Shown here one piece after another: positions 1-44,836 of a DNA stretch of 64,000 nucleotides. A model generated the notes under the pieces. The model was not told the origin of the DNA. It was given only the letters and a program-made list of their open reading frames with translations, and did no database searches. Where the stretch lies: the NCBI GenBank assembly GCA_019136655.1, contig JAGVTU010000003.1, positions 28,098 through 92,097 on the forward strand, read 5' to 3'. The DNA comes from Bacteroidota bacterium. GTDB taxonomy: Bacteria > Bacteroidota > Bacteroidia > AKYH767-A > OLB10. Within the stretch, counting starts at the first letter, position 1. Each line of letters begins with the position of its first letter. Position numbers and translations under genes: made by a program.

Positions 1-275
1 TTTTTCTCCCCACCATTTACATGATTTTTGTCATTTTTTCATAAGCTGATTTTTTTTGAAATTGCTTAAGAAACTGCGCATTTTGCAAGGTGAAATGATG
101 ATACATCACTTTTCTCTCTGAAAAACCTTCTTATCCGGTGCTTTTTGTCTTTGTTTTGACACAAACCCTTCATTATTCATGCGTAATGTCGCCTGCAATT
201 AAAGTCAAAAAATATTTAAGATAAATTTGTCCTAAATAAAACAGGTCTTACCTTTGCAACCCCAAAGTAAAGTTT

Positions 276-710
276 ATGTTTTCAAAAGCATGTGAGCACG
301 GAATTAAAGCAATTATTTACATAGCCACTCAGTCGCTGCAAGGGCAAAGGGCAAAAATTGGTGATGTGGCAATAAACTCCGGATCTCCCGGAGCTTTCAC
401 TGCAAAAGTTTTAGGTACACTTACCAAGTATAATATTGTTAATTCATATACCGGCCCTACAGGTGGCTTTGATATGTCGGTGAAACAAATGCGGCAGATA
501 AGAATGAGTGATATTGTAAAGATTATTGATGGCGATAATATTTACAATGGTTGCGGATTAGGCCTCAGCGAATGTAATGAATCAAAACCCTGCCCCATGC
601 ATGACAAGTTCAGTAAAGTGAGAGCGGGAATTAAAGATATGCTTACAAAAACTACTGTTTATGACCTTGCCAAAGGATTGCACGAAGGAAAGACAGTGCT
701 GATCAGATAA
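276..710 (+). CDS. Rrf2 family transcriptional regulator (IscR/NsrR-like, with Cys cluster)
   Basis: N-terminal wHTH resembles Rrf2 (HGIKAIIYIA...). A CGLGLSECNESKPC cysteine cluster is typical of Fe-S-binding Rrf2 regulators. It is the first gene of a co-directional, tightly spaced operon. Confidence 0.75.
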   Translation: MFSKACEHGIKAIIYIATQSLQGQRAKIGDVAINSGSPGAFTAKVLGTLTKYNIVNSYTGPTGGFDMSVKQMRQIRMSDIVKIIDGDNIYNGCGLGLSECNESKPCPMHDKFSKVRAGIKDMLTKTTVYDLAKGLHEGKTVLIR

Positions 711-797
711 CGAAGCAAAACTCACTTCTTGGTATTTTGTTCACTAATAAGATAAAAATTAATAAAAGTAAAAAGCAGTATAATTAAGATAAAAAAT

Positions 798-1034
798 ATG
801 GAGAATAAAGAAATCTGGTTACCATCATTAATTACAGCAACACCGCAGGAAGGACGTGAGTTAGCTATTAAAATGGCAAGAAAATCTATAGCTGCTATTC
901 AAACCGATCCGGAAATTAGAAAACAACTCCGCAGCGATTATGCTAATGACACAGCACAACTGATTGCTTCTGCAAATGTGGTGGCTCTCGAGTTTCAAAC
1001 CATTGCAGTTGCCAATAATTACTGGAAAAAATAA
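798..1034 (+). CDS. hypothetical small protein (78 aa)
   Basis: ORF lying between the Rrf2 gene and the truncated hemoglobin gene on the same strand. No motif recognised. Confidence 0.3.
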   Translation: MENKEIWLPSLITATPQEGRELAIKMARKSIAAIQTDPEIRKQLRSDYANDTAQLIASANVVALEFQTIAVANNYWKK

Positions 1035-1068
1035 TTCTCAGAATAAACCGGGTATATCCCTTTTTTAA

Positions 1069-1464
1069 ATGAGTGAGCTCAAAGACATAACATCCATTGA
1101 CGATATCAGAATTCTGGTAGATACTTTTTACGGCAAAATACGTGAAGATGATTTGCTGAAAGATATTTTTAACAATGTCATTCAGGACCGGTGGCCGCAA
1201 CATCTCGAAAAAATGTATCGTTTCTGGCAAACTGTTTTGTTTGACGAACACACTTATTTTGGTGCTCCATTTGTACCGCATGCGCAGCTTCCTGTAGAAA
1301 AACTTCACTTCGACCGTTGGGTGTCTTTATTCAACGAAACAGTTGATCATTTTTTCAGTGGCGAAAAAGCAACCCGCGCCAAATGGCAGGGCAACAGAAT
1401 GGCAGAAATGTTTCTGATGAAAATACAGTATTACAAAAACAACGCTTCAACACCGCTGCAATGA
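1069..1464 (+). CDS. group III truncated hemoglobin (Ctb-like)
   Basis: Aligns by eye along its whole length with Campylobacter Ctb. Shared segments include FY.K.R.D..L..IFNN.I and H..LP......F..W..LF.E. Confidence 0.75.
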   Translation: MSELKDITSIDDIRILVDTFYGKIREDDLLKDIFNNVIQDRWPQHLEKMYRFWQTVLFDEHTYFGAPFVPHAQLPVEKLHFDRWVSLFNETVDHFFSGEKATRAKWQGNRMAEMFLMKIQYYKNNASTPLQ

Positions 1465-1910
1465 AAATAATTAAACATCCGCAAGTGGTAGTTGCCGTTT
1501 TTATATGGATAGGTTTTGTCAGTGCAATAAGTTTTATGGAGTCATGGCTTAAGTTTCTGGCTCCCGGCATCACCATTCCTCTTGGACTCGGTGTTGGCAG
1601 GTTGGTGTTTGTTGCACTCAACAAGGTTGAGTGGGCGCTTGTACTGTTTATTTTAATCAGTTTGTTGTATGCACGCGAAAATATTTTCGTTATTGGGTAT
1701 GCAACATTTCTGATTCCGTTTTTTATTGTAATCATACAGACATTCTGGTTGCTGCCTGCAATGGATGCAAGAGCACAACTTCAGATTGACGGAACTACTG
1801 TTCCTCCTTCTTATCTGCATATTTATTTCGCAGGTTCCGAAGTTATAAAGGCAACCTGTTTGTTTATATTTGGCATCTCACACTTCAAACCTGTTAAAAA
1901 TTATGAGTAA
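1461..1910 (+). CDS. hypothetical 4-TM membrane protein
   Basis: The in-frame ATG at 1461 overlaps the trHb stop codon (ATGA). Four hydrophobic helices are visible. The track ORF at 1383 is probably over-extended at the 5' end. Confidence 0.45.
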   Translation: MKIIKHPQVVVAVFIWIGFVSAISFMESWLKFLAPGITIPLGLGVGRLVFVALNKVEWALVLFILISLLYARENIFVIGYATFLIPFFIVIIQTFWLLPAMDARAQLQIDGTTVPPSYLHIYFAGSEVIKATCLFIFGISHFKPVKNYE

Positions 1911-2808
1911 AGAAAAAATCTTAAACGACATTGATGGAAAATATCAGCAGCTTGGCGAAAATTCTGAAACCTATCTGAAAGGATTGCTTCAGGCAAAACC
2001 CATCACTTACTGGGATTATATTCAGGTGGACACACTGTTTACCCTGCAAAAAACCAGAACGGATTTTAAAGACGAAGCCATCTTTGTGATGTATCATCAG
2101 GTTACTGAATTGGTGTTGAAAATGATGGTGCACGAACTGCAGCAGCTTGTTTTCGAAGACCTGAAAGAAGAAATATGGATGGATAAACTCAACCGCCTCA
2201 ACCGTTATACTTCCATGCTCATTACCTCATTTGATGTGATGAAATTCGGAATGAACTATGACGACTATAATACTTTCCGCAGTACGCTTGCTCCTGCAAG
2301 TGGTTTTCAGTCGGCCACCTTCCGTTATCTCGAAATTTATTGCACACCGCTTGAAAACCTCATTAACGAAGAAGGTAAAAAACGCCTTCCTGCAAATCCA
2401 ACAGTTGAAGATTATTTTGAAAACATCTACTGGAAAGATGCAGGTACCGACAGAAAAACAGGTAAAAAATCTCTTACCCTTCGTTTGTTCGAAGAAAAAT
2501 ATTTGAACAGTTTTATTGAGTTAGCCAAAAAAGTAAAAGGAAATACGCTGGAAGAAAAAATCAAAAAGTTTCAGAATCCTTCAAAAGAATTTATATCAAA
2601 GCTTAAAGAGTTTGATATCATGTACAATGTGAAGTGGCCTATTGTGCATTTGGAAACTGCTCAGCATTACTTAGACAGCAAAGGCGAAAACAAAGCAGCA
2701 ACCGGTGGCAGCGAATGGAAAAAATATCTGCATCCGAAATATCAGCAACGTAAATTTTTCCCGAAACTATATACCCATGATGAAATAGCCCGTTGGGGAG
2801 AAGAGTAA
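1903..2808 (+). CDS. tryptophan 2,3-dioxygenase (TDO) family heme protein
   Basis: YWDYIQVDTLFTLQ and DEAIFVMYHQVTELVLKMMVHEL match the conserved TDO N-terminal helices (YxxYLxLDxLLxxQ / DELLFIxxHQxxELWFK). The ATG at 1903 overlaps the stop codon of the preceding gene. Confidence 0.65.
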   Translation: MSKEKILNDIDGKYQQLGENSETYLKGLLQAKPITYWDYIQVDTLFTLQKTRTDFKDEAIFVMYHQVTELVLKMMVHELQQLVFEDLKEEIWMDKLNRLNRYTSMLITSFDVMKFGMNYDDYNTFRSTLAPASGFQSATFRYLEIYCTPLENLINEEGKKRLPANPTVEDYFENIYWKDAGTDRKTGKKSLTLRLFEEKYLNSFIELAKKVKGNTLEEKIKKFQNPSKEFISKLKEFDIMYNVKWPIVHLETAQHYLDSKGENKAATGGSEWKKYLHPKYQQRKFFPKLYTHDEIARWGEE

Positions 2809-2828
2809 AAACAATTAAATATAATATC

Positions 2829-3599
2829 ATGGAAGTTAAAGATTTTGAAAAAGCACAGGGACACTGGATTCTTGCAAGAATGGGAAAAAGAGTTTTACGT
2901 CCCGGAGGTAAGGAGCTTACTCAAAAATTAGTTTCTGAATTACATATTTCTTCTGATGATGATGTGGTGGAATTTGCACCTGGGTTAGGTTACACAGCTA
3001 CACTTGCATTAAAAGATCATCCGCATTCTTATACCGGTGTGGATGCTGATGAAGATGCAATCAAATCATTAAAACAAAAAGTAAAAGGACAAAATATTCA
3101 GTTTGTTCTTGGCAATGCAGGAAATACCAGTATTGAAAGTAATTCTAAAGATAAAGTTTGGGGTGAAGCCATGCTTACTATGCATGCCGACCATCGCAAA
3201 TCCGAAATCATAAAAGAAGCATACCGCATTCTTAAAAAAGGAGGCCTGTATGCCATACATGAATTAGGGTTGAAGGATGTGAATGAAAATCTTAAAAGTG
3301 AAATTCAGAGAGACCTGGCAGTTACCATAAAAGTAAATGCCCGCCCACTGACAGAGCAGGAATGGAAAAGTTTACTCGAGAAAGAAGGTTTCACAGTCAG
3401 AAAAATTTATACCAATGAAATGTTGTTGCTCGAGACTAAACGTATTCTGGATGATGAAGGATTTTTCAGAACACTGAAGATTGGTTACAACATTCTGGTG
3501 AACTCATCTGCACGTAAACGCATTACAGAGATGAGAAAATCATTCAGAAAACATCAAAAACACATCAATTCAATTGTTCTGATAGCACAAAAAAGTTAA
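2829..3599 (+). CDS. class I SAM-dependent methyltransferase
   Basis: A VVEFAPGLGYTA motif resembling a Rossmann-fold SAM-binding site. The ATG at 2829 is in frame with the track ORF and avoids overlap with the upstream gene. Confidence 0.6.
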   Translation: MEVKDFEKAQGHWILARMGKRVLRPGGKELTQKLVSELHISSDDDVVEFAPGLGYTATLALKDHPHSYTGVDADEDAIKSLKQKVKGQNIQFVLGNAGNTSIESNSKDKVWGEAMLTMHADHRKSEIIKEAYRILKKGGLYAIHELGLKDVNENLKSEIQRDLAVTIKVNARPLTEQEWKSLLEKEGFTVRKIYTNEMLLLETKRILDDEGFFRTLKIGYNILVNSSARKRITEMRKSFRKHQKHINSIVLIAQKS

Positions 3600-3617
3600 T
3601 TTATAAATATCGTACCA

Positions 3618-4343
3618 ATGAGTATTTCAAAAGAAAGTATCATAGGAGAGTTGGTTGCCAATGATTATCGCACCGCTTCTGTTTTTAAAAAACACAACAT
3701 AGACTTTTGCTGCAATGGCAACAGAAGTATTGCAGACGCCTGTGAGAAAAAGAAAATTGACAGCAATGAACTGATACAGCAACTGGAGCAGGCAATAACT
3801 ACGAACAATGCATCGTCTGTTGACTTTAACTCCTGGCCACTCGACTTGCTGGCTGATTACATTGAGAAAAAACATCATCGCTATGTTGAATCCCGTTCGC
3901 AGGAAATAAAACCATTTCTTGATAAAGTAATTCGTGTGCATGGTGACAGACATCCTGAGCTGATTGAAACAGGAAAACTTTTTAACGAGAGCGTTGGAGA
4001 ACTGGCAATGCACATGAAAAAAGAAGAGCTTATGCTGTTCCCCTTCATTCGCAGAATGGTTCAGGCAGAACAAAACGGAACTTCTGTTCAGGCGCCATTC
4101 GGATCGGTGCAAAACCCCATTAAAGCTATGATGCACGACCATGATGGTGAAGGAGAGCGTTTTCGTAAAATTTCCTCTCTTACCAACAACTATAACCCTC
4201 CTGCAGATGCATGTAATACATACAGAGTAACTTATTCGATGTTAAAAGAATTCGAAGAAGACTTACATTTGCACATTCATTTGGAAAATAACATCTTATT
4301 CCCAAAAGCAATTTCAATGGAGGAAAAATTAGCAACAGTTTAA
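3618..4343 (+). CDS. ric: iron-sulfur cluster repair di-iron protein RIC (YtfE/ScdA family)
   Basis: ScdA_N-like N-terminus (DFCCNGNRSI). The C-terminal half carries hemerythrin-like His/Glu-rich cation-binding segments (HH..E, H..E..LFP, HDHDGE, HLHIHLEN). Confidence 0.75.
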   Translation: MSISKESIIGELVANDYRTASVFKKHNIDFCCNGNRSIADACEKKKIDSNELIQQLEQAITTNNASSVDFNSWPLDLLADYIEKKHHRYVESRSQEIKPFLDKVIRVHGDRHPELIETGKLFNESVGELAMHMKKEELMLFPFIRRMVQAEQNGTSVQAPFGSVQNPIKAMMHDHDGEGERFRKISSLTNNYNPPADACNTYRVTYSMLKEFEEDLHLHIHLENNILFPKAISMEEKLATV

Positions 4344-4382
4344 TCAAAATCAATTTATAACAAATTAAAAATTCAATTAAAA

Positions 4383-4901
4383 ATGAAAAAATCAATTTTA
4401 GTTTTTGCATCTGCAGCTATGTTTTTAGCTGCCTGTAGTTCATCAACCGAGCAAAAAAGCACCGAACCTGCTGCTCCTGCCGAAACAACTACTCCTGAAG
4501 CAGCTCCTGCTCCTGCCCCTGCTGAGCCTGCTGTAGTTACTCTTAACGCAGGTGATGATATGAAGTATGACATTACAGAAATTAAAGTTAAAGCGGGACA
4601 AACAGTGAAACTAACACTGCACCACACAGGTAAATTGCCGGTGTCAGGAATGGGCCATAACTTTGTTTTGTTAGCTTCTGGTGTTGACTTGGCTGAGTTT
4701 GCTCAGGCTGCTCTTAAAGCAAAAGACAGTGAGTATATTCCGGCAGATCTGTCAGATGATATTCTTGCTCATACAAAACTTATCGGTGGTGGCGAAACAA
4801 CAGAAATCGAATTTACTGCTCCTGAAAAAGGTACATATGATTACCTGTGTACTTTCCCGGGACACTATGCTATGATGCAAGGTAAATTTATTGTTGAATA
4901 A
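4383..4901 (+). CDS. azu: azurin (type-1 blue copper protein), lipoprotein-type signal
   Basis: Signal peptide with a lipobox Cys, followed by a Pro/Ala-rich linker. Azurin copper-ligand pattern: GMGHNFVL ... CTFPGHYAMMQG (Gly-His ... Cys-x4-His-x3-Met). Overall alignable with Pseudomonas azurin. Confidence 0.8.
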   Translation: MKKSILVFASAAMFLAACSSSTEQKSTEPAAPAETTTPEAAPAPAPAEPAVVTLNAGDDMKYDITEIKVKAGQTVKLTLHHTGKLPVSGMGHNFVLLASGVDLAEFAQAALKAKDSEYIPADLSDDILAHTKLIGGGETTEIEFTAPEKGTYDYLCTFPGHYAMMQGKFIVE

Positions 4902-4935
4902 TTTTGCGCTGCGATAAAAAGCAAAATTTTCATGA

Positions 4936-4970
4936 CGGGCAAGCAACTGAAAAGGCTTGCCCGTTTTTTT
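4936..4970 (+). terminator. rho-independent terminator after azurin
   Basis: Perfect 9-bp stem CGGGCAAGC / GCTTGCCCG with a 10-nt loop, followed by TTTTTTT. Confidence 0.8.
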
Positions 4971-5080
4971 ATAGCTGTTATTTAAAATAAAAAGTTAGCT
5001 GCAACAATTTTCTTTATCAACTGTTTTGAACAGAAGAAAGATAATAAAGTAAATTTTCATTCTGAATAAAAATAGAATTT

Positions 5081-5425
5081 ATGAAAATTAAACGTGTATA
5101 TGAAAAACCTGAGAAGGAAGATGGCTACCGAATATTGGTTGACAGACTGTGGCCCCGTGGTATCAGTAAAGCCTCTGCTGAAATTGATGAATGGATAAAG
5201 GAAATAGCTCCTTCAACTGAACTGAGAAAATGGTTCAATCACGAACCTGAAAAATTTCCTGAGTTTAAGAAACGATATAAAGAAGAACTCAAAACACAAA
5301 CTGCAGAGCTTAAAAAAATTCACGAACTTTCACAGAAGAAAAAAGTAACCTTATTGTATTCTGCCAAAGACACACAATTCAATCAGGCAGTCGTGTTGCT
5401 GGAAGTGTTGCAGAAACTCAAATAA
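5081..5425 (+). CDS. DUF488 family protein
   Basis: KRVYEKPEKEDGYRILVDRLWPRGISK...DEWIKEIAPSTELRKWF is the signature start of DUF488. Confidence 0.65.
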   Translation: MKIKRVYEKPEKEDGYRILVDRLWPRGISKASAEIDEWIKEIAPSTELRKWFNHEPEKFPEFKKRYKEELKTQTAELKKIHELSQKKKVTLLYSAKDTQFNQAVVLLEVLQKLK

Positions 5426-5456
5426 ATTAAACTAACAAAATTGATTCTGTTTTTCA

Positions 5457-6185
5457 ATGGACGATATACTTCATAACCTTCAGGTCATCAACAGCCGTAT
5501 TGAAGCAGCTTGCAGCAAATCACACCGCGAACGATCGGAAGTAAGATTGCTTCTTGCAACAAAAACGGTAACACCTGAACGCATTATCAAAGCTATGGAA
5601 GCAGGATATAACATGATTGGTGAAAACAAAGTGCAGGAAGTAAAAGAAAAGTACGAAGCCCTGAAAAGTATTCCGCATACAAAACATTTTATCGGACATC
5701 TTCAAAGCAATAAAATTAAGGATGTCATAAGATATGGCGTTACCTGCATTGAAACAATTGACCGCATTGAGCTCGCACAAAAATTACATCAGCGGCTTCT
5801 TTCTGAAAACAAAACAATGGAAGTGTTGATACAGGTGAATACTTCAAATGAAGAGAGTAAGTTCGGAGCAGGTCCTGATGATGCTATAGAACTTACCAAA
5901 CAGGTTTCGCAACTTGAAACATTAAAAATTAAAGGGCTGATGACAATAGGCCTTTTCAGTGCTGAAACTGAAAAAGTACGAAGCTGTTTCAGATTACTTA
6001 AAAATATTCAGCAGCAGATTGTCGCATTAAAAATTCCTCATGTGGAAATGAAAGAACTTTCGATGGGCATGAGTGGCGATCTTGAAACAGCTATTGAAGA
6101 AGGTGCAACCATTGTGCGCGTGGGCACTGCTGTTTTTGGCAAAAGGATTTATCCTGACAGTTATTACTGGAATGAAAACAAATAA
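5457..6185 (+). CDS. yggS: YggS family pyridoxal-phosphate homeostasis protein
   Basis: Matches the YggS/PLPBP family along its length (VRLLLATKTV, IGHLQSNK, ELSMGMSGD) and has the typical length. Confidence 0.8.
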   Translation: MDDILHNLQVINSRIEAACSKSHRERSEVRLLLATKTVTPERIIKAMEAGYNMIGENKVQEVKEKYEALKSIPHTKHFIGHLQSNKIKDVIRYGVTCIETIDRIELAQKLHQRLLSENKTMEVLIQVNTSNEESKFGAGPDDAIELTKQVSQLETLKIKGLMTIGLFSAETEKVRSCFRLLKNIQQQIVALKIPHVEMKELSMGMSGDLETAIEEGATIVRVGTAVFGKRIYPDSYYWNENK

Positions 6186-6188
6186 TTC

Positions 6189-7238
6189 CTACTGATTGCT
6201 TTTCAGATAATCAGTCAAAAATTTTTCAATGAGTCGCGGGTGTGCATATTTTTTCTGAAACTCCTTTATTGTCACTTTGTAAAGTTTTTCTTCTTCCGCT
6301 TTCTTTAATTTACGCTTAAGAACACTTACAATAAAATGTGCTTCTATTTTACGGTGTGTCAGCTGATGAGAGTATGTTTTTGAAATGGTGTAATCACGAA
6401 TCCCTATTTCCTTCAGCTCTTTTTGAAGTTGTTTATCTGAAATTTTTTCTTTCGTTTCTATCAGAGGAAACTCATAAAGATTTTTCCAGATGTCGTTCTC
6501 TCTGCGTTGCTGAATGTAAATTTTATCGTCATGTTTCAGCATCAGATAATAAAACCAGCGTTGCTTAATTTTCTTTTTTTGTTCTTTAACAGGAAATGAT
6601 TTTTGTGTTTGATGCGCATAAGCCATGCAATATGGCTGCAGCGGACACTGATGACATGCAGGGTTTGCAGGCGTACACACCAGCGCACCCAATTCCATCA
6701 TTGCATAATTATATAATGCAGGTCGTTTCCTGTCTCCACATTCATTTGCAATTTGCTCCAATATTTTTTTCCCTTCAGTGGAATTTACTGCCTGTTTCAC
6801 TTCAAACATTCGTGCCAACACACGGTTCACATTTCCATCTACAACAAACACCGGCTGATTGAATACAAAAGATGCAATGGCAGCAGCAGTATATGGCCCT
6901 ATCCCTTTAAGTTTTATCAACTCACTATATTGCTTCGGAAAAACACCATCGTATTTCTCTGCCACTTCACGTGCAGTAGCAAGCAGATTTCTGCCTCTGG
7001 AATAATATCCCAATCCCTGCCATAACTTCAGCACTTCGCCTTCTGACGCTGCAGCAAGAGAATAAACATCAGGATATTGTTCAGTAAATTTATAATAGTA
7101 TGGCAGCCCCTGCTCCACGCGTGTCTGCTGCAGAATAATTTCGCTCAGCCATATTTTATAAGCATCTTTTGTTTCACGAAAAGGAAGGTCGCGTTTATTT
7201 TTCTGATACCACTTTATAAGTGCTGACTGAAATGACAT
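6189..7238 (-). CDS. mutY: A/G-specific adenine DNA glycosylase MutY
   Basis: HhH-GPD domain (ILQQTRVEQ...LKGIGPYTAAAI). 4Fe-4S Cys ligands (CTPANPACHQCP..C). C-terminal NUDIX-like domain. Confidence 0.85.
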   Translation of the reverse strand: MSFQSALIKWYQKNKRDLPFRETKDAYKIWLSEIILQQTRVEQGLPYYYKFTEQYPDVYSLAAASEGEVLKLWQGLGYYSRGRNLLATAREVAEKYDGVFPKQYSELIKLKGIGPYTAAAIASFVFNQPVFVVDGNVNRVLARMFEVKQAVNSTEGKKILEQIANECGDRKRPALYNYAMMELGALVCTPANPACHQCPLQPYCMAYAHQTQKSFPVKEQKKKIKQRWFYYLMLKHDDKIYIQQRRENDIWKNLYEFPLIETKEKISDKQLQKELKEIGIRDYTISKTYSHQLTHRKIEAHFIVSVLKRKLKKAEEEKLYKVTIKEFQKKYAHPRLIEKFLTDYLKSNQ

Positions 7239-9476: not shown

Positions 9477-10940
9477 ATGGATATCCTCAATCAGATTATT
9501 TGTGGGCTGAATAAAGAGCAGGTACGTTTTTTCAAAATGTATCTAAGCCGTATTGAAACTGAAGACGAGCGAAAAGATGTCGTATTGTTTGACTACATAC
9601 GCAAGAGTAGCGACAACTATGATGATGAAAAAATTTTCAGGCGACTTTATGACGACAATGAAAAGAATTCTTTTTACAGATTAAAAAACAGACTCATGCG
9701 TGAAGTCAACAAAAGCCTCACGCTTCAGCATTTTGATGATGAGCCTGTGGTTTATATTTTCCGTTTGCTGGCACTCGTAAAATTTTATCTGAATAAAAAC
9801 GCACTGAAGCCTGCACATTATTTTCTGCGTAAAGCTGAACAGAAAGCAAAATCTATTGAAAACCTTGAGTTGTTAGACATCATCTATGGTGAGTTTATCA
9901 AACTTGCCAGAGAACAGGTTTCAATAAATCCTGAGGAATATATTTTAAAGCGAAAAGAAAATCTGATGAACCTGAGCCGTATGCGAACCATGGACGACAT
10001 TCTGGCTGCAGTAATTTACCGTCTTAAAGTAACTCAAAATCTTGGCACCACTGACAGCTCTGTTATTCAACTGCTCCAAAAAACCATTGACGATTTTGAT
10101 GATAAATCACTTTCATCAAGTCCTTTGTTTCGTTTCAAAATGTATCAGGGTGTAAGTCAGGTTTTGTTGCAGTCGCATCAGTATGCCCTTCTTGAAAATT
10201 ATCTGCTTAAAACCTATCATTCTTTCAGAGATGAGAAACTGTTCAACAAAAACAATCATGAAACCAAACTGCAGATGTTGATTTATCTTGTCAACTCACT
10301 TTACAAAAACGGCAAACAAAAACTGTCGCTCGAGTATGCAGATGAGTTGCACACTGCCATGAAAGAGTTTGGAAATATGCTTTATGATAAATATTTGTTT
10401 TACTATTATAACACGCTTGTCATCAACTACTCCCGCACAAATAAGCGAAAAGAGTTGGAAGTGCTGACAGAAATGGACAAGAATCCGAAGATAAATTCAA
10501 ACCCTTTCCACCGTCAGTTTATTTTACTCAATATGTCGTTGGCATGGTTCGATCTGAAAGAGTTCAATAAAGCAGCACGTTATCTTTCCAGACTGCAACT
10601 TTTACCTGAATTCAAAGAGGCTGACAGTGCACTGCGTTTGCGAATTGCCGTTACTGAACTGATGATACGTTATGAGCTGAATGATATTGACACATTTAAA
10701 TACAAACACAAACAGTTCAGGAAAGACTATGCTAAAGAGCTCACCTACCCTACAAACGAATCCGAAAAAATTATGGCAGAAATTCTTAATCTGATGACGG
10801 AAGAAAATCCTAAGAAGAATAAATCACTGTTATCGAAGGTAAAGAATATCTCCTCTGCCACACATGCCGATGATGATGCTCAGGGATTGATTCATTATGC
10901 ATCATGGTTAAAAGAAAAATTTCCGGCAGTGTTGGTGTGA
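9477..10940 (+). CDS. hypothetical all-helical (TPR-like) protein, 487 aa
   Basis: Long ORF with no recognisable catalytic motif. Composition is rich in helical repeats. Confidence 0.4.
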   Translation: MDILNQIICGLNKEQVRFFKMYLSRIETEDERKDVVLFDYIRKSSDNYDDEKIFRRLYDDNEKNSFYRLKNRLMREVNKSLTLQHFDDEPVVYIFRLLALVKFYLNKNALKPAHYFLRKAEQKAKSIENLELLDIIYGEFIKLAREQVSINPEEYILKRKENLMNLSRMRTMDDILAAVIYRLKVTQNLGTTDSSVIQLLQKTIDDFDDKSLSSSPLFRFKMYQGVSQVLLQSHQYALLENYLLKTYHSFRDEKLFNKNNHETKLQMLIYLVNSLYKNGKQKLSLEYADELHTAMKEFGNMLYDKYLFYYYNTLVINYSRTNKRKELEVLTEMDKNPKINSNPFHRQFILLNMSLAWFDLKEFNKAARYLSRLQLLPEFKEADSALRLRIAVTELMIRYELNDIDTFKYKHKQFRKDYAKELTYPTNESEKIMAEILNLMTEENPKKNKSLLSKVKNISSATHADDDAQGLIHYASWLKEKFPAVLV

Positions 10941-13609: not shown

Positions 13610-14476
13610 ATGAAAAAGTTAATTTTAATAGCGCTGCCGGTAATAGGAATGACTTTATTCGGATGCGAAAACTACAAAGAACAGGCTGCACAGTTAGCAA
13701 AAGAACGTGATTCGCTAATGGCTTTAAATAATGCTGGAACACAAACTATTGATGAGTTTGTAAGTACGCTTACTGAAGTTGAAAACAACCTTGGCAAAAT
13801 CACTGAAAAGCAAAATGCAGTTGCAATGGCCGCTGACCGTAATCCTGAAGGAGCACGTTCATCACGCGAAAGACTGAATGCGCAGATTGAAGAGATCAAC
13901 CGTATGATGTCAGAAAATAAAGCTAAAATTGAAGAGCTTTCTAAAAAACTCGGTGGTGCAAATGCACATGCTGCAAAGTTTAAGAAAATGGTACAATCTC
14001 TTCAGGAGCAACTGACACAGAAAGAACAGGAACTGGTGGCACTGAATGAAAAATTAGGAAACCTGAATGTAGAGCTTACTTCTTTAAAAACGAGCTTTGA
14101 CTCTGTTTCAACAATGAATCAAAATCAGGCTACTACTATTGCTGAACAAACCAACAAAATTCACACTGCTTACTATACTGTTGGTAACTACAAAAAATTG
14201 CGCGACAAACAAGTTCTTTCCAAAAAAGGCGGACTACTTGGTATGGGTAAATCTGCAACTGTTGTTCCAACTATTAAAGACGATAACTTTACACGTATAG
14301 ATTATACTCAGGTAAGCACTATTCCTGTAAACAGCAAAAAAGCAGAGCTGGTAACTACACATCCGGTTGGTTCATATAAAATTGAAAAAGAAAATGACAA
14401 AATCAGTGATATCGTAATTACCGATCCTGAAAAATTCTGGAGTGCGTCAAAATATTTAGTTGTAATGACCAAATAA
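13610..14476 (+). CDS. coiled-coil lipoprotein (hypothetical)
   Basis: Lipoprotein signal (LFGC). A long heptad-like coiled-coil region precedes a C-terminal beta-rich domain. Confidence 0.5.
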   Translation: MKKLILIALPVIGMTLFGCENYKEQAAQLAKERDSLMALNNAGTQTIDEFVSTLTEVENNLGKITEKQNAVAMAADRNPEGARSSRERLNAQIEEINRMMSENKAKIEELSKKLGGANAHAAKFKKMVQSLQEQLTQKEQELVALNEKLGNLNVELTSLKTSFDSVSTMNQNQATTIAEQTNKIHTAYYTVGNYKKLRDKQVLSKKGGLLGMGKSATVVPTIKDDNFTRIDYTQVSTIPVNSKKAELVTTHPVGSYKIEKENDKISDIVITDPEKFWSASKYLVVMTK

Positions 14477-14891: not shown

Positions 14892-15827
14892 TTATTTCAG
14901 ATCAACAGAAGTGCCTGCAATCATACTTCCTTCGCAATATACTTCAATGGTATATTTACCGGGAGCAAAAGCTGAACCTTTTTCCCAATAAATACACATA
15001 TTAGTTTCTTTATTGTCGTAATCAAAGGATTCTTTTACTGTATAAAGTGATGCCTGTCCGGCAATGGTAAATGTTTCGGAATTATTGGTCATCACGGAAC
15101 CATCAGGTCCGGTAATTTTTACAAAAACATCTTTTGAACCCGCAGTAGTTACCGTGTTTTCGAGAATAGTAAAGCAAGTTTTGATTTTTTGAGCCGAAGA
15201 AGCCTTGTTGGTTTCCATCTCCTTGCCACTGTTTTTATATCTCACTCCTGCAGATTTGATAGCAGTTGTTTTCAATACTGATGCTGCAGCTACCCGTTTT
15301 GTCAGAACAGAATTTTCCATTTCCAGATTAGAAGATTTATTCTTTTCAACGGTAATCATATTGTTGAGCGATTCGTTTTGTGTAAGAAGTTGTTCATTTA
15401 CTCCTCTCAGTGAATCTAATTGCATCACATATAACTGATTCATTGACTTCAGACGTTCAAGTTCCTGACGTGCTGCTTTCAGTTGTGCTGCATCACCCGA
15501 TTCAATCATTCTTCTTATCTGAGCCATCTTGCTTTTAATCTCCTCATCCTTACTCAGCAATTGTGATTGCAGACTGGAATTCTCCTGATTTATTTTTTCA
15601 AACTCGGCTTTTACACGTTGTAATTCTGCTGACAATGCATCCCGTTCAGCTGAAGTGCTTTCCAAACTGCGCGAAACTTCTTCCAAATGGCTCTTTTTAT
15701 CAAAAAACTGCCATAACAACAGGCCATTTACTCCTAATAAAATAGCAATTACTACAAAAACCAATGCCCTGCGAGAGTTTTGTTCTCTCCTGTCGGCTTT
15801 GGCATATTCACTGTTAGAGTCTTCCAT
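14892..15827 (-). CDS. membrane-anchored coiled-coil protein (hypothetical)
   Basis: Short charged N-terminus, a single TM (ALVFVVIAILLGVNGLLLW), a coiled coil of about 150 aa, and a C-terminal beta-rich domain. Confidence 0.5.
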   Translation of the reverse strand: MEDSNSEYAKADRREQNSRRALVFVVIAILLGVNGLLLWQFFDKKSHLEEVSRSLESTSAERDALSAELQRVKAEFEKINQENSSLQSQLLSKDEEIKSKMAQIRRMIESGDAAQLKAARQELERLKSMNQLYVMQLDSLRGVNEQLLTQNESLNNMITVEKNKSSNLEMENSVLTKRVAAASVLKTTAIKSAGVRYKNSGKEMETNKASSAQKIKTCFTILENTVTTAGSKDVFVKITGPDGSVMTNNSETFTIAGQASLYTVKESFDYDNKETNMCIYWEKGSAFAPGKYTIEVYCEGSMIAGTSVDLK

Positions 15828-21457: not shown

Positions 21458-23584
21458 TTGCCCGCAGTGAAAGCGAACAAGCAGTTTTTTTATAGCATTA
21501 TACTCATCCTCATAGCCTGGTTGGGTTATTATGAAATATCGTTTTTCCGTCATACGCTGAAGTGGGATGTAATTGATCAGTATTATCCGTGGCGCATGTA
21601 TGTGGTACAGTGTCTTCGCAATGGTTTTTGGCCGTTGTGGAATCCTTATGAACAGTTTGGTTATCCCATGCATGCCGATCCGCAAAGTGGTGTGTGGTAT
21701 CCTGTGGTGTGGTTGTTTTCGTTGTTTGGGCCTTACACTCTTTACAGTGTGCAATTGGAATTTATGTTGCACGTGGCTCTGGGTGGTGTTGGAATGTTGC
21801 TGTTTCTTCAAAAAGCAGGCATACAACAGAAGGTGAGTTTTTTTCTTGCTGTATGTTATATGTTTTGTGGTTTATTTATCGGCAATGCACAACACCTCAC
21901 CTTTACAGTTGCTGCCTGCTGGATTCCTTTTATGCTTTATTCTTTTATTCAGCTGACACAAACTCCGGGAGTAAAACATGCTGCACAATTTGCTTTATTC
22001 GGTTATCTGCTGTTGTCGGGAGGATATCCGGCTTTTGCAATTATTTTATTCTATATCCTGATTGCATGCACACTGATTCTGCTGTTTACAAAACGAAATA
22101 ATACCACATGGATAAAACAATTCTTAATTTATTCTTTTGTTGCTGTTGTATTGTTGGTGCTAGCATCTTCTGCCCTGCTTTACAGTGTGTGGCAAAGCTC
22201 TGATTATCTTGCACGTGCTGAAGGTTTAAGTTATAAAGTAGCTTCCTTCGGGCCATATTCACCACAATCGTTGCTATCGTTTTTCTTCCCACTGGCATCG
22301 GCCAAGGAGTTTGCTTTCTTTGATACTGACATCAGCATGTCGTCCACCTATGTTGGGCTGATTGCTTTTGCGGGGTTTGTTGCCTTTTTGTTTTCATCCA
22401 AATCGCGCTGGCAATGGCTGTTACTTGTTGCAACACTGCTTGTTGCACTAACTGCTTTTGGCAAATATACTCCCGTACATAAACTGGTTTATTCATTTGT
22501 GCCGATGATGGATTTGTTCCGGTTTCCGTCAGTGTTTCGTCTTTACATTATTATTGGTGTGTTGATGATGGCAGGATATTATTTTTCTGCAAACTTTAAT
22601 GCTATTACTGTCAGAAAAATATTAGTGGTATTCCTGATTATTATATTTCCGGTTTCTGTTTATTTGTTTTTATCGTCAGGAAATTTTCCTCCATTCACAG
22701 GATGGAATTCTTTTATCACTGCTTTATCACTCAAACAGTCATTTGTTTTTCAGGGATTTTTTCAGTGTCTGGTCATAGGCTTGTTTCTTTTGTTGCTGTA
22801 CAAAAGCAAACAGGATACCAATTTAAGAAAATGGTTATTCGTAGCAGGCATTGCCGAAGTAATGATTGCTGCACAGTTTAATATTCCCATCACTGCTATA
22901 AATGAAAATAAAACAAAACAAACAGCAGAAGAACTACATCAGAATGCTGTTGAAGATTTTCGTCTTCCTGATATCAGACCTATGATTCTGAATAATGATT
23001 CGGGAGGATATGTTTCACCCTTTTGGCGCAATCTTAATTTATTCAAAAAACAACCTGCATGGGATGGTTATAATTCATTTCAGCTTAAAAACTATATCCG
23101 CTTTGTTGATGATGAACGTTTGCGCAACTCACAGCTGCAAAACAACTGGTTGTTTTATTCCGACTCTGTAATTTTCTTTTATGATTCAATTATTGTAGCA
23201 GATGTGCAACACAGAAAATTAGTATTTATCAACGACTCCAACCGCAAAGATATTTCTGTAATTAAACCGGGTGATAATTCTCTTAAGCTTACTGAATTTA
23301 ATCCTGAAATCATTCAGGTACAGACAGAAGTTCATAATGCTACATTACTCACACTTATGCAGCAATATTATCACGGCTGGAAAATTTATGTTGATGGACA
23401 AGAGCGAAAACCGTTTGTAAGTGATTATCTGTTTATGAGTGTTCCACTTAAACAGGGTGACACAAAGGTTGAATTCCGTTATGAAAACAAACCCGTTAAA
23501 ACCGCAGCAAAAGTTTCGTTTGCGACACTGCTGATACTTGCTGCAACATGGATAGGACTTTCTTTTAAAGGCAAGAAAAACTAA
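21458..23584 (+). CDS. YfhO family polytopic membrane protein
   Basis: More than 12 TM helices in a protein of about 700 aa with a C-terminal extracytoplasmic domain. This is the typical YfhO glycosyl-transferase-like architecture. The TTG/GTG start is uncertain. Confidence 0.55.
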   Translation: MPAVKANKQFFYSIILILIAWLGYYEISFFRHTLKWDVIDQYYPWRMYVVQCLRNGFWPLWNPYEQFGYPMHADPQSGVWYPVVWLFSLFGPYTLYSVQLEFMLHVALGGVGMLLFLQKAGIQQKVSFFLAVCYMFCGLFIGNAQHLTFTVAACWIPFMLYSFIQLTQTPGVKHAAQFALFGYLLLSGGYPAFAIILFYILIACTLILLFTKRNNTTWIKQFLIYSFVAVVLLVLASSALLYSVWQSSDYLARAEGLSYKVASFGPYSPQSLLSFFFPLASAKEFAFFDTDISMSSTYVGLIAFAGFVAFLFSSKSRWQWLLLVATLLVALTAFGKYTPVHKLVYSFVPMMDLFRFPSVFRLYIIIGVLMMAGYYFSANFNAITVRKILVVFLIIIFPVSVYLFLSSGNFPPFTGWNSFITALSLKQSFVFQGFFQCLVIGLFLLLLYKSKQDTNLRKWLFVAGIAEVMIAAQFNIPITAINENKTKQTAEELHQNAVEDFRLPDIRPMILNNDSGGYVSPFWRNLNLFKKQPAWDGYNSFQLKNYIRFVDDERLRNSQLQNNWLFYSDSVIFFYDSIIVADVQHRKLVFINDSNRKDISVIKPGDNSLKLTEFNPEIIQVQTEVHNATLLTLMQQYYHGWKIYVDGQERKPFVSDYLFMSVPLKQGDTKVEFRYENKPVKTAAKVSFATLLILAATWIGLSFKGKKN

Positions 23585-31867: not shown

Positions 31868-31980
31868 ATCAGGCATTTTAGTTGTGAGCGATACAAAATC
31901 ATATACATGTAAGAATATAATGACACTAAAACTTTTAATTTTTGCAGGTGTTAAGCAATATATTTTGTAATATCTAATAC

Positions 31981-44813: not shown

Positions 44814-44836
44814 ATAAAGGATGTTATTTTGAATTA

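What the first reader, a model, noticed from the sequence alone, without database searches (positions are those of the whole stretch)
276..4970. Eight-gene Rrf2-headed operon mixing NO-stress proteins with a TDO-family heme protein and azurin
Rrf2, a 78-aa hypothetical protein, group III trHb, a 4-TM membrane protein, a TDO-like protein, a SAM MTase, RIC and azurin are all co-directional. Gaps between them are at most 88 nt. There are two start/stop overlaps (ATGA at 1461-1464, and an 8-nt overlap at 1903-1910). The array is closed by a strong terminator at 4936-4970. Truncated hemoglobin, RIC and an Fe-S Rrf2 regulator (NsrR-like) are each known nitrosative-stress players. Their fusion into a single operon with a copper electron carrier (azurin, a typical donor to NosZ/NirK) and a TDO-family protein is not a named canonical module. 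The same window contains a full nosZ cluster 37 kb away, which suggests a coordinated N-oxide module.
Basis: partly seen in the sequence, partly recalled or inferred. Interest (0 to 1): 0.55.

Follow-up and report, generated by a model that had tools for sequence, protein, structure and literature searches.

The report
Rrf2-controlled NO-stress operon in Bacteroidota
This is a real eight-gene operon, switched by its own iron-sulfur Rrf2 regulator through a conserved 24-bp DNA palindrome; versions of it recur across Bacteroidota, and they unexpectedly place a genuine tryptophan 2,3-dioxygenase and an orphan heme protein (HTHP) beside classic nitric-oxide/oxygen damage-repair genes.

Summary
Eight co-directional genes (276-4901) have gaps of at most 87 nt and two start/stop overlaps. 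There is one Bacteroidota-type promoter (226-256) and a strong terminator (4934-4970).

New findings:
- The "hypothetical" 78-aa gene encodes an HTHP heme protein.
- The TDO-like protein keeps every catalytic and Trp-binding residue of Xanthomonas TDO.
- A 24-bp palindrome (214-237) overlaps the -33 promoter element. It sits about 54-75 bp (mostly 62-66) upstream of nearly every orthologous Rrf2 gene examined. A PWM at 14 bits or more found it nowhere else in 1.5 Mb, apart from second sites just downstream of Rrf2. It occurs in two classes that co-vary with the Rrf2 recognition helix.
- The core Rrf2-trHb-Mem-TDO-RIC recurs in 55 of 80 species-level loci. Four Rrf2-anchored loci all carry RIC, and none carries TDO.

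Best reading: an autoregulated, Fe-S Rrf2-repressed stress operon that works like NsrR but is not an NsrR orthologue. The signal (NO, versus O2 or oxidants) is inferred. The proposed link to the nos cluster 36 kb away is not supported: no shared operator, and unrelated genes lie between. The azurin-to-NosZ idea is untested.

Verdict: a new variant of a known kind, of moderate interest. Why TDO belongs here is unexplained.

The parts
214..237 (.). 24-bp palindromic operator ATTTAAGATAAATTTGTCCTAAAT, the predicted Rrf2 binding site
   Evidence: It is the only match in the window (expected 0.01 by chance; still the only hit at >=10 bits). An equivalent palindrome lies 54-75 bp (mostly 62-66) upstream of the Rrf2 ATG in nearly all of the ~50 orthologous loci. 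In 1.5 Mb, PWM hits >=14 bits occur only there or directly after Rrf2. The two operator classes co-vary with the recognition helix.
226..256 (+). Bacteroidota-type promoter: -33 TTTG (226-229), 19-nt spacer, -7 TAccTTTG (249-256)
   Evidence: It is the only TTTG-N17-21-TAnnTTTG match in 1-5500. A TAnnTTTG-like element is visible at the same place in most orthologous upstream regions. The promoter consensus comes from established knowledge of Bacteroides sigma-A promoters. The transcription start was not determined.
276..710 (+). Rrf2-family regulator, 144 aa, predicted Fe-S cluster protein and autoregulator
   Evidence: PF02082, E 2e-19. It falls below every NCBIfam equivalog cut-off, including NsrR, IscR, RirA and CymR. 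C6, E7, C93, C100, C106 and H109 are each conserved in >=90% of 47 orthologue sequences.
798..1034 (+). HTHP, hexameric tyrosine-coordinated heme protein, 78 aa
   Evidence: PF11534, E 1.3e-35. PDB 2OYY, E 9.5e-21, with Y47 aligned to a conserved Tyr of 2OYY, which I take to be the heme-ligand Tyr (residue identity from my own knowledge, not checked here).
1069..1464 (+). Group III truncated hemoglobin, 131 aa
   Evidence: PF01152, 28.7 bits (cut-off 21). The best PDB match is 2IG3, C. jejuni Ctb, E 1.6e-12.
1461..1910 (+). Conserved four-helix membrane protein ('Mem'), 149 aa, no family, translationally coupled to both neighbours
1903..2808 (+). Tryptophan 2,3-dioxygenase homologue, 301 aa
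   Evidence: PF03301, 88 bits. All XcTDO active-site residues align: F61, H65, Y122, R126, L129, S133, H249, T267, Y36 and Y39. Most of these are invariant among 12 diverse sequences and in >=90% of 81 sequences, except F61 (>=60%), Y36 and Y39 (invariant among 12; below 90% among 81) and S133 (invariant among 12; not checked among 81). All top fold matches are TDOs.
2829..3599 (+). Class I SAM-dependent methyltransferase, 256 aa, substrate unknown
   Evidence: Methyltransf_11/25/31. The best NCBIfam model is the DVU_1556 family, below cut-off. Only weak PDB matches. It is present in ~10-13 related loci, and also in L095, which has no TDO.
3618..4343 (+). RIC (ScdA/YtfE/DnrN type di-iron protein for repair of iron centres), 241 aa
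   Evidence: TIGR03652, 256 bits, above the cut-off of 204.7. ScdA_N plus Hemerythrin domains. It is the one partner found in all four Rrf2-anchored loci.
4383..4901 (+). Lipoprotein blue-copper protein of the azurin/auracyanin family (Laz-like), 172 aa
   Evidence: PF00127. TIGR02695 scores 103.8 against a cut-off of 105.1. PDB auracyanin A 2AAN (7e-24) and Neisseria Laz 3AY2 (7e-21), the latter including the Ala/Pro-rich linker. The lipobox LAAC and the Cu ligands H...C-x4-H-x3-M can be read.
4934..4970 (+). Intrinsic terminator closing the operon
   Evidence: An 11-bp GC-rich stem plus T7; fold.
5081..5425 (+). DUF488 gene: a recurrent downstream neighbour, possibly a ninth member reached by read-through
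   Evidence: PF04343/PF22752. It follows RIC or azurin closely, or overlaps them, in many relatives, e.g. L048, L070, L091 and L096. In the window it lies behind the terminator.

Best explanation
This is one autoregulated transcription unit. A dimer of the Rrf2 protein binds the palindrome at 214-237. The protein is predicted to carry an Fe-S cluster on C93, C100 and C106, plus H109 or the invariant N-terminal C6/E7. The palindrome overlaps the -33 element of the only promoter, so binding blocks RNA polymerase. When the cluster is damaged, most probably by nitric oxide made during N-oxide respiration in the community, the repressor leaves. A ~4.7-kb mRNA is then made, running from about 262 to the terminator at 4970.

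The mRNA encodes the repressor itself and a kit of proteins that handle small reactive gases and repair metal centres:
- RIC, which repairs Fe-S and iron centres.
- A group III truncated hemoglobin, for NO dioxygenation or O2 buffering.
- HTHP, a peroxidase-like heme protein.
- A four-helix membrane protein, translationally coupled to the hemoglobin and to TDO.
- A genuine tryptophan 2,3-dioxygenase.
- A methyltransferase.
- A lipid-anchored azurin, acting as a periplasmic electron carrier.

Shown: gene structure, promoter/operator/terminator anatomy, conservation, operator-helix co-variation, and family and active-site assignments. Inferred: repression rather than activation, the Fe-S cluster, NO as the signal, and every biochemical role. 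The reason TDO is a member is not known.
For: Operon anatomy.

Operator:
- Unique in the window.
- Found 54-75 bp (mostly 62-66) before nearly every orthologous Rrf2 gene.
- In 1.5 Mb, PWM hits >=14 bits lie only before or just after Rrf2.
- Class 1 (ATTTAnGAyAAATTTrTCnTAAAT) goes with the helix SP(E/G)AFTAK(V/I)LG. Class 2 (ATAGTGGAyA..TrTCCACTAT) goes with SPEAYTSKILQ.

Cluster ligands are conserved.

Conservation: 55 of 80 species loci carry partners. trHb or Mem lies directly upstream of TDO in 45 of 73 loci. RIC or MT lies directly downstream in 37 of 71.

Rrf2-anchored loci L093-L096 all have the operator and/or RIC.

NO theme:
- RIC is an equivalog of YtfE/ScdA/DnrN. These genes belong to NO-responsive regulons (NsrR, NorR, HcpR) in other phyla (PMC1274295).
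- The trHb is closest to C. jejuni Ctb. Established knowledge: ctb is induced by NO through NssR.
- L095 places the operon beside NirK-like and COX2-COX1-SCO1 genes.
- The host carries a clade II-type nos cluster.

GC content is uniform, so the operon is native.
Against: - No experiment supports any of this.
- The regulator is not an NsrR orthologue, and its operator differs from the proteobacterial NsrR motif gATGyAT-N5-ATrCATc.
- Its C-x6-C-x5-C-x2-H pattern is IscR-like.
- No hmp, hcp, norB or nnrS gene was found in any of the operons.
- The heme-copper oxidase inserted in ~18-20 related operons is cbb3-like and keeps the cross-link Tyr. That makes it an O2 reductase type, not a NOR.
- Hemerythrins, HTHP and the neighbouring OsmC/thioredoxin/rhodanese cluster fit an O2 or peroxide signal equally well.
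- An operator centred near -38 could in principle serve activation.
Confidence: 0.55

Rival explanations
1. Same operon and same Rrf2/operator switch, but the physiological signal is O2 or peroxide (oxidative or micro-oxic transition stress) rather than NO. Oxidation of the Fe-S cluster would derepress a set of O2-binding or O2-consuming proteins (trHb, hemerythrin, TDO, a cbb3-type oxidase in relatives), a peroxidase-like HTHP, and RIC to repair oxidised clusters.
For: - The oxidase in related operons is closest to cbb3 CcoN (E 1e-64, against 6e-10 for NorB) and keeps the catalytic Tyr. CcoN/CcoO models also hit.
- Hemerythrin genes occur in 24 loci and a 2Fe-2S ferredoxin in 11.
- The neighbouring cluster is Crp/Fnr-OsmC-rhodanese-thioredoxin.
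- A weak operator-like site lies 41 nt before a catalase gene in L089.
- TDO needs O2. HTHP has reported peroxidase/catalase activity (my own knowledge).
- No dedicated NO enzymes are present in the operons.
Against: - RIC orthologues are mostly under NO-responsive regulators elsewhere.
- The closest trHb relative is NO-induced in Campylobacter (my own knowledge).
- cbb3 oxidases also reduce NO slowly.
- L095 sits beside a NirK-like gene.
Confidence: 0.25
2. The Rrf2 protein is an IscR-like sensor of Fe-S, iron or heme status, and the operon is a metalloprotein-homeostasis unit rather than a gas-stress unit.
For: - The (Cys)3-His spacing matches IscR.
- The class 2 operator ATAGTGGAyA..TrTCCACTAT resembles the IscR type-1 consensus (consensus from memory; operator).
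- JGI names some homologues 'iron-sulfur cluster assembly transcription factor'.
- The operon is dominated by heme, iron and copper proteins.
Against: - The IscR equivalog models score 42.5 and 21.6 bits against cut-offs of 207 and 275.
- No isc, suf, iron-uptake or heme-synthesis gene appears in any of the operons examined.
Confidence: 0.1
3. One reading: the operon and the nos cluster 36 kb away form one coordinated N-oxide module, with azurin as electron donor to NosZ.
For: - A nos cluster is in the window: cytochrome c 47490-47984, nosZ 45470-47461, NosD 42558-43859, an ABC ATPase 41854-42561 and an ABC-2 permease 41090-41857. I read the last two as NosF and NosY from their position.
- Clade II nos scaffolds of the CFB group are reported to be enriched in adjacent Rrf2 regulators (PMC6264515).
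- Azurins donate electrons to N-oxide reductases in some bacteria (my own knowledge).
Against: - No operator copy lies near nos, or anywhere else in the window, even at 10 bits.
- The genes between are unrelated: RNase R, MTHFR, an ECF sigma factor, T9SS cargo, NadA and others.
- nos has its own cytochrome c.
- Azurin is present in only about 8-10 of the related operons.
Confidence: 0.08
4. The genes are merely adjacent and are transcribed from several promoters; co-directionality reflects synteny, not co-regulation.
For: - The promoter scan is consensus-based, and relaxed internal promoters cannot be excluded.
- Many relatives have a second operator and promoter after Rrf2, so Rrf2 can be a separate unit there.
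- An 87-nt gap follows Rrf2 in the window.
Against: - Two overlaps, and gaps of 18-39 nt elsewhere.
- No second operator or full promoter match inside 276-4901.
- A single strong terminator at the end.
- Gene content is shuffled among species but always lies behind the same operator.
Confidence: 0.08

Closest known systems
NsrR regulons of Proteobacteria, Neisseria, Bacillus and Streptomyces (NO-sensing Rrf2 repressor)
   Same: An Rrf2 protein with three C-terminal Cys; a palindromic operator overlapping the promoter; RIC (ytfE/dnrN) as a core target together with a globin; the regulator encoded beside its targets.
   Different: It is not orthologous (NsrR model 28 bits against a cut-off of 182). 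The operator sequence differs. The ligand pattern is IscR-like, with an extra conserved His and an invariant N-terminal Cys-Glu. The globin is a group III trHb rather than Hmp. Members without precedent are TDO, HTHP, the four-helix membrane protein, the MTase and the lipo-azurin.
IscR (E. coli [2Fe-2S] Rrf2 regulator)
   Same: A Cys3-His ligand arrangement, and a 24-25-bp palindrome of the ATAG..GAC...GTC..CTAT style (class 2 operator).
   Different: It scores below the IscR equivalog cut-offs, and there are no isc or suf targets.
Campylobacter jejuni NssR regulon (cgb, ctb)
   Same: It contains a group III truncated hemoglobin, the closest solved relative (2IG3), as a stress-induced gene.
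   Different: The regulator there is Crp/Fnr-type, not Rrf2, and the regulon has no RIC, TDO or HTHP.
Bacterial tryptophan 2,3-dioxygenase (KynA; Xanthomonas campestris 2NW7/2NW8) of the kynurenine pathway
   Same: The heme ligands and all Trp-binding residues are conserved. It shares 70-76% identity with stand-alone TDO genes of Mesonia and Aequorivita (Flavobacteriaceae), an order reported to use the kynurenine route to NAD.
   Different: The middle third is divergent (TIGR03036 92 bits against a cut-off of 390). It is not linked to any other kynurenine-pathway gene. It is embedded in a stress operon. The host also has NadA (38444-39442).
Neisseria Laz (lipid-modified azurin) and Chloroflexus auracyanin A
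   Same: A lipobox, an Ala/Pro-rich linker, an azurin fold and the Cu ligands His/Cys/His/Met.
   Different: Here it is encoded as the last gene of an Rrf2 operon, and its partner oxidoreductase is unknown.
HTHP of Silicibacter (Ruegeria) pomeroyi (2OYY)
   Same: Same length; about 55% identical by my count over the aligned region; a conserved Tyr aligns at Y47.
   Different: No physiological role is known for HTHP. Here it has a defined regulatory and genomic context.

Membership tests
NsrR (NO-sensing Rrf2 repressor) | Rrf2 winged-helix fold | tested here: met
   PF02082, E 2.2e-19, 70 bits against a cut-off of 30.
NsrR (NO-sensing Rrf2 repressor) | Three conserved C-terminal Cys ligands for an Fe-S cluster | tested here: met
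   C93, C100 and C106 are each conserved in >=90% of 47 orthologue sequences.
NsrR (NO-sensing Rrf2 repressor) | Sequence orthology to characterised NsrR | tested here: not met
   NF008240 scores 28 bits against a cut-off of 182. PDB matches are only weak hits to generic Rrf2/CymR proteins.
NsrR (NO-sensing Rrf2 repressor) | NsrR-type operator (gATGyAT-N5-ATrCATc) | tested here: not met
   The operator is ATTTAnGAyAAATTTrTCnTAAAT. The NsrR motif is taken from PMC1274295.
NsrR (NO-sensing Rrf2 repressor) | Regulon of NO-detoxification or repair genes (hmp, ytfE/dnrN, hcp, nnrS) | tested here: inconclusive
   RIC is always present, and a trHb often. No hmp, hcp, nnrS or norB gene was found.
NsrR (NO-sensing Rrf2 repressor) | DNA binding abolished by NO | not testable with these tools
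   Requires purified protein, or expression data.
IscR | Cys3-His cluster ligation | tested here: met
   C93-x6-C100-x5-C106-x2-H109 is conserved. The IscR pattern C92/C98/C104/H107 is from memory.
IscR | Orthology, and control of isc/suf genes | tested here: not met
   TIGR02010 scores 42.5 against 207.6. No isc or suf genes lie in or next to any locus.
Tryptophan 2,3-dioxygenase (TDO/KynA) | Proximal and distal His, and the Trp-binding residues (XcTDO F51, H55, Y113, R117, L120, S124, H240, T254, Y24, Y27) | tested here: met
   All align with identical residues. Most are invariant among 12 diverse sequences and in >=90% of 81 sequences; exceptions are F61 (>=60%), Y36 and Y39 (invariant among 12; below 90% among 81) and S133 (invariant among 12; not checked among 81).
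Tryptophan 2,3-dioxygenase (TDO/KynA) | Family model score and fold | tested here: met
   Pfam PF03301 scores 88 bits against 34.9. All top Foldseek matches are TDOs at probability 1.00, although TM is only ~0.45 and the model pLDDT is 72. The TIGR03036 equivalog cut-off is not reached (92 against 391).
Tryptophan 2,3-dioxygenase (TDO/KynA) | Operates within a kynurenine pathway (kynB, kmo, kynU, haao in the genome) | not testable with these tools
   None was seen among the called genes of the loci whose annotation was returned. Whole genomes could not be scanned.
RIC (YtfE/ScdA/DnrN) | ScdA_N domain plus a di-iron hemerythrin-like domain, at equivalog score | tested here: met
   TIGR03652 scores 256 bits against 204.7, with PF04405 and PF01814.
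Group III truncated hemoglobin | 2/2 globin closest to Ctb | tested here: met
   2IG3, E 1.6e-12, against 2e-3 for the group II protein YjbI. PF01152 is above its cut-off.
HTHP | ~75-aa protein with a Tyr heme ligand | tested here: met
   PF11534, E 1.3e-35. 2OYY, E 9.5e-21, with Y47 aligned to a conserved Tyr that I take to be the ligand.
Azurin / lipid-modified azurin | Type-1 Cu ligands (His, Cys, His, Met) in a cupredoxin fold | tested here: met
   GHNF...C-TFPG-H-YAM-M aligns with auracyanin A and Laz. TIGR02695 scores 103.8 against 105.1, marginally below the cut-off.
Azurin / lipid-modified azurin | Lipoprotein signal and a flexible Ala/Pro linker (Laz) | tested here: met
   MKKSILVFASAAMFLAAC followed by a PAAPAETTTPEAAPAPAPAEPA linker. 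The linker aligns with that of Laz, 3AY2.

The most novel reading that the evidence does not exclude
TDO is in this regulon because the regulon responds to damage of Fe-S clusters. On this reading, NO or O2 destroys the [4Fe-4S] quinolinate synthase NadA, which is encoded in this same window. The same insult inactivates the Fe-S repressor. That would switch on RIC to repair clusters, and TDO as the entry to an Fe-S-independent route from tryptophan to quinolinate and NAD. Alternatively, TDO could supply kynurenine-type radical scavengers. The co-translated group III hemoglobin and four-helix membrane protein would keep the TDO heme free of NO and supplied with O2.

This makes a prediction. Lineages where TDO is the only NAD route should have released it from Rrf2 control; these would be the stand-alone genes in Mesonia and Aequorivita. 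Lineages with NadA should keep TDO conditional.
Probability: 0.12. Interest if true: 0.75.

Novelty: new variant of a known kind. Interest (0 to 1): 0.5.

Why it matters
- It defines a phylum-wide, apparently undescribed Rrf2 regulon in Bacteroidota. The definition includes operator, promoter, two specificity classes and a modular gene set. These organisms are abundant in wastewater, soil and marine N-cycling communities.
- It gives the orphan heme protein HTHP and an unnamed membrane protein family their first regulatory context.
- It shows that the Bacteroidota tryptophan 2,3-dioxygenase usually sits inside a gas/metal-stress operon. That links tryptophan oxidation to NO or O2 stress in a way that can be tested in cultured relatives.
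- It supplies a concrete DNA motif for regulon prediction in metagenomes of N2O-reducing Bacteroidota.

Tried and rejected
- The oxidase in related operons as a nitric-oxide reductase. Rejected: it is far closer to cbb3 CcoN than to NorB and keeps the cross-link Tyr.
- Extra operator copies at nos or elsewhere in the window. None found, with up to 3 mismatches or at >=10 bits.
- Operator before stand-alone TDO genes (Mesonia, Aequorivita, Saprospiraceae). No PWM hit; only a degenerate half-site-like element in Aequorivita.
- Rfam families in 1-6500. None.
- Literature. No paper in the library combines TDO with NsrR or Rrf2, or with RIC or trHb. The HTHP literature found is protein engineering only. 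The OLB10 search was uninformative.
- Exact look-up of the 708-aa product of window 21458-23584. Not on record.
- Recent horizontal transfer. GC is uniform at 36-41%.
- Rest of the kynurenine pathway in the same genome. This could not be tested.

Full report
**1. What is in the sequence**

They are Rrf2 (276-710), a 78-aa ORF (798-1034), a globin (1069-1464), a membrane protein (1461-1910), a TDO-like protein (1903-2808), a methyltransferase (2829-3599), RIC (3618-4343) and an azurin-like protein (4383-4901).

The gaps are 87, 34, -4, -8, 20, 18 and 39 nt. Both overlaps (ATGA at 1461-1464; ATGAGTAA at 1903-1910) can be read directly.

A hairpin at 4934-4965 followed by seven T closes the array. 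The fold of 4900-4985 gives dG -24.9 kcal/mol and z -2.9, and none of 200 shuffles folds as well. The consensus scan missed this terminator only because its loop exceeds 8 nt.

GC content is uniform, and no Rfam family matches 1-6500. Identical or near-identical contigs from independent assemblies show the same order. The nearest named genome is Bacteroidetes bacterium OLB10, with TDO 98% identical.

**2. What the genes are**

- **Rrf2.** It hits Pfam Rrf2 (E 2e-19) but reaches no NCBIfam equivalog. NsrR scores 28 against a cut-off of 182, IscR 42.5 against 207, and RirA and CymR are similarly low. PDB matches are weak.
- **78-aa ORF.** This 'hypothetical' is an HTHP heme protein (PF11534, E 1.3e-35). 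It matches 2OYY at E 9.5e-21, with Y47 aligned to a conserved Tyr that I take to be the heme ligand.
- **Globin.** It is group III; the best solved relative is C. jejuni Ctb, 2IG3 (E 1.6e-12).
- **Membrane protein.** It has no family. It has 795 homologues, nearly all annotated as hypothetical. The confident AF2 model shows four helices (pLDDT 84.7), but these match only generic bundles.
- **TDO-like protein.** Pfam matches only its N-terminal half. In the alignment to Xanthomonas TDO (2NW7), however, every active-site residue is identical: F61=F51, H65=H55, Y122=Y113, R126=R117, L129=L120, S133=S124, H249=H240, T267=T254 and Y36/Y39=Y24/Y27. Most of these are invariant among 12 diverse sequences and in >=90% of 81 sequences; the exceptions are F61 (>=60%), Y36 and Y39 (invariant among 12; below 90% among 81) and S133 (invariant among 12; not checked among 81). 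The top fold matches are all TDOs. I therefore treat it as a genuine tryptophan 2,3-dioxygenase.
- **Methyltransferase.** It is a generic class I enzyme.
- **RIC.** It passes the equivalog cut-off (256 against 204.7 bits).
- **Last gene.** It encodes a lipoprotein with an Ala/Pro-rich linker and a complete type-1 copper site. Its closest solved relatives are auracyanin A and Neisseria Laz.

**3. The regulatory site**

I aligned the 110 nt before the Rrf2 start codon from about 50 loci. This revealed a conserved 24-bp palindrome.

- In the window it is ATTTAAGATAAATTTGTCCTAAAT at 214-237. In L012 it is a perfect palindrome.
- It lies 54-75 nt, mostly 62-66 nt, before the ATG in nearly all loci.
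- In the window the pattern matches once, against 0.01 expected by chance.
- A PWM built from 36 sites was scanned over 1.5 Mb (86 loci plus the window). It scores >=14 bits only at these positions and, in about 22 loci, at a second site directly after Rrf2, in front of the next gene.
- At >=10 bits the window still has a single hit.
- The palindrome overlaps a TTTG (226-229). Nineteen nt downstream lies TAccTTTG (249-256). This is the Bacteroides-type -33/-7 promoter (consensus from established knowledge), and it is the only full match in 1-5500.
- The operators fall into two classes: ATTTAnGAyAAATTTrTCnTAAAT and ATAGTGGAyA..TrTCCACTAT. The predicted recognition helix changes with them, from SP(E/G)AFTAK(V/I)LG to SPEAYTSKILQ. 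This co-variation is what direct recognition by this protein predicts.
- C93, C100 and C106 are conserved, as are H109 (IscR-like spacing) and an invariant N-terminal MFSKACE.

**4. Comparative genomics**

One scan of species-representative genomes with a TDO alignment gave 403 confirmed relatives, of which the best 80 were kept. I mapped the window's proteins onto these 80 loci.

- 55 of 80 carry at least one partner.
- trHb or Mem lies directly upstream of TDO in 45 of 73 loci with enough flank.
- RIC or the MTase lies directly downstream in 37 of 71.
- Rrf2 lies upstream in 37 of 60.
- The lineages span Cyclobacteriaceae, Cytophagales, Chitinophagaceae, Flavobacteriales, Vicingaceae and others.
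- The complete eight-gene order is found only in the closest relatives (L007, L008).
- HTHP, Mem, MTase, azurin and DUF488 come and go.
- About 18-20 loci have an insert between Rrf2 and HTHP/trHb. It holds a divergent heme-copper oxidase, a CcoO-like dihaem subunit and two small ORFs.
- That oxidase is cbb3-like: E 1e-64 to CcoN, against 6e-10 to NorB. It keeps the cross-link tyrosine. It is therefore an oxygen-reductase type, not a NOR.
- Other recurrent extras are a 153-aa hemerythrin (24 loci), a 2Fe-2S ferredoxin (11 loci) and an unknown 98-aa protein (17 loci).
- Twenty-five loci have TDO without partners, some followed only by DUF488. These are mostly Mesonia, Aequorivita, Ulvibacter and Haloflavibacter (Flavobacteriaceae) and Saprospiraceae. 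They lack the operator.
- As a reciprocal test I looked up four Rrf2 homologues chosen without reference to TDO. Pedobacter flavus has Rrf2-Mem-RIC-azurin. A Saprospiraceae MAG has Rrf2-RIC-hemerythrin. A Ferruginibacter contig has Rrf2-HTHP-Mem-MTase-RIC-NDH2, next to COX2-COX1-SCO1, catalase and a NirK-like gene. A Cyclobacteriaceae MAG has Rrf2-trHb-RIC-DUF488.
- All four have RIC and none has TDO. The three I checked carry the class 1 operator 64 nt (site start) before the Rrf2 gene start. The invariant pair is therefore Rrf2 plus RIC. trHb-Mem-TDO is a frequent optional module, and this operon is the usual home of the TDO gene outside Flavobacteriaceae.

**5. Surroundings**

The nos cluster is real and lies on the minus strand:

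- cytochrome c, 47490-47984
- nosZ, 45470-47461 (nos_propeller)
- a fasciclin protein, 44837-45406
- an unknown 192-aa ORF
- NosD, 42558-43859
- an ABC ATPase, 41854-42561, and an ABC-2 permease, 41090-41857, which I read as NosF and NosY from their position

The 36 kb between the operon and nos encodes unrelated functions. These include MutY-like, YggS-like, sensor kinases, an ECF sigma factor, T9SS cargo, MTHFR, a MerR/B12 regulator, RNase R and a NadD-like protein. NadA lies at 38444-39442. The organism therefore has at least the quinolinate synthase of the aspartate route to NAD, which suggests TDO is not its only route.

Just upstream of the window start, sister contigs show a Crp/Fnr-OsmC-DUF6132-rhodanese-thioredoxin cluster.

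**6. Mechanism**

The best-supported model is an autoregulated repressor-operator switch. Holo-Rrf2 occupies 214-237 and occludes the -33 element. Loss or modification of its cluster releases it. One mRNA then runs to the terminator.

The signal is inferred from the cargo. RIC genes sit in NO-responsive regulons in other phyla: NsrR, NorR, and HcpR in Bacteroides (PMC1274295). The nearest trHb relative, Ctb, is NO-induced in Campylobacter (my own knowledge). The host is an N2O reducer from N-cycling communities.

Several points count against a purely NO reading:

- there are no hmp, hcp, norB or nnrS genes;
- the oxidase in relatives is an oxygen-reductase type;
- hemerythrins and HTHP are present;
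- the neighbours are thiol/peroxide stress genes.

I put NO (nitrosative damage) at about 0.55, O2 or peroxide at about 0.25, and Fe-S/iron/heme status at about 0.1. Repression rather than activation is inferred from the site's position and from family precedent.

Why a true TDO is co-translated with a group III globin and a four-helix membrane protein is unexplained. I can offer three possibilities: protection or oxygenation of an NO-sensitive ferrous-heme enzyme; supply of kynurenine-type scavengers; or an Fe-S-independent bypass of NadA. The last is the most novel reading and is testable by whole-genome pathway profiling, which I could not do here.

**7. Comparison with known systems and novelty**

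The system works like an NsrR regulon but fails two membership tests for NsrR, orthology and operator. It shares the IscR ligand pattern without IscR targets.

No paper in the searchable library describes this operon or links TDO or HTHP to Rrf2, RIC or trHb. One paper notes that Rrf2 genes are enriched next to clade II nos clusters in CFB scaffolds (PMC6264515), which is not the arrangement here. [quoted passage not shown]

I classify the finding as a new variant of a known kind: a lineage-specific Rrf2 stress regulon with a defined operator and unusual members.

**8. Verdict**

The operon, the Cys ligands, the palindrome and the recurrence in Bacteroidota are all borne out, while the link to nos is not supported and NO as the signal remains untested. 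Interest is moderate (0.5).

Noticed in passing
window 38444-39442 (-) and 36367-36942 (-): A quinolinate synthase NadA (PF02445, E 3e-126) and a cytidylyltransferase-like (NadD-type) gene lie near the nos cluster. The host therefore has at least the quinolinate synthase of the aspartate route to NAD, which bears on why it also keeps a TDO.
   Followed up: partly
window 41090-47984 (-): The nos cluster has a clade II-like layout: cytochrome c, nosZ, a fasciclin-domain protein (44837-45406), an unknown 192-aa ORF (44235-44813), NosD, then an ABC ATPase and an ABC-2 permease that I read as NosF and NosY. No Rrf2 gene or operator lies next to it, unlike the CFB scaffolds described in PMC6264515.
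   Followed up: partly
window 5081-6185 (+); L091 9275-9619; L096 9690-10043; L087 9254-9988: DUF488 (YeaO-like) and an Ala_racemase_N/YggS-type PLP protein recur just downstream of the operon in many lineages. In some loci DUF488 overlaps RIC or sits between azurin and a hemerythrin, so it is probably a regulon member there.
   Followed up: partly
L087 907-4351; L089 5198-9437; L091 2753-6561: Related operons carry a divergent cbb3-like oxidase with a ~130-aa N-terminal extension, a 335-aa CcoO-like subunit with an extra cytochrome c domain, and two conserved small ORFs (86 and 134-140 aa) with no family. The cross-link Tyr is kept.
   Followed up: partly
L089 18113-18136; L095 4976-4999: Two weak operator-like palindromes lie outside the operon. 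One (16.8 bits) is 41 nt before a catalase gene. The other (11.4 bits) is 118 nt before a COX2-COX1-SCO1 cluster that sits directly upstream of the Rrf2 operon. They may be extra regulon members or chance matches.
   Followed up: no
L094 8516-9233: The RIC gene after Rrf2 in this Saprospiraceae MAG matches in two pieces in different frames (residues 1-84 and 82-239). This is either a frameshift pseudogene or an assembly error.
   Followed up: no
L051, L063, L065, L075, L076, L079, L085, about 70 nt upstream of TDO: Aequorivita stand-alone TDO genes share a conserved upstream element, AATAGAAAAATATCCCTTATT. It looks like a decayed class 2 operator (right half TATCC..TAT) and scores below the PWM threshold.
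   Followed up: no
L001 4820-8069 (immediately upstream of window position 1): A co-directional cluster of Crp/Fnr regulator, OsmC, DUF6132, three rhodanese-domain proteins and thioredoxins precedes the operon. It is another thiol/peroxide or sulfur stress unit.
   Followed up: no
window 30914-32868 (+): An MTHFR gene is followed by a MerR-family regulator with a B12-binding domain (CarH/LitR-like), possibly for light- or B12-dependent control.
   Followed up: no
window 9477-10940 (+), 13610-14476 (+), 14892-15827 (-), 40366-41070 (+), 44235-44813 (-): Several sizeable ORFs (192-487 aa) have no Pfam family, including one between NosD and the fasciclin gene inside the nos cluster.
   Followed up: no
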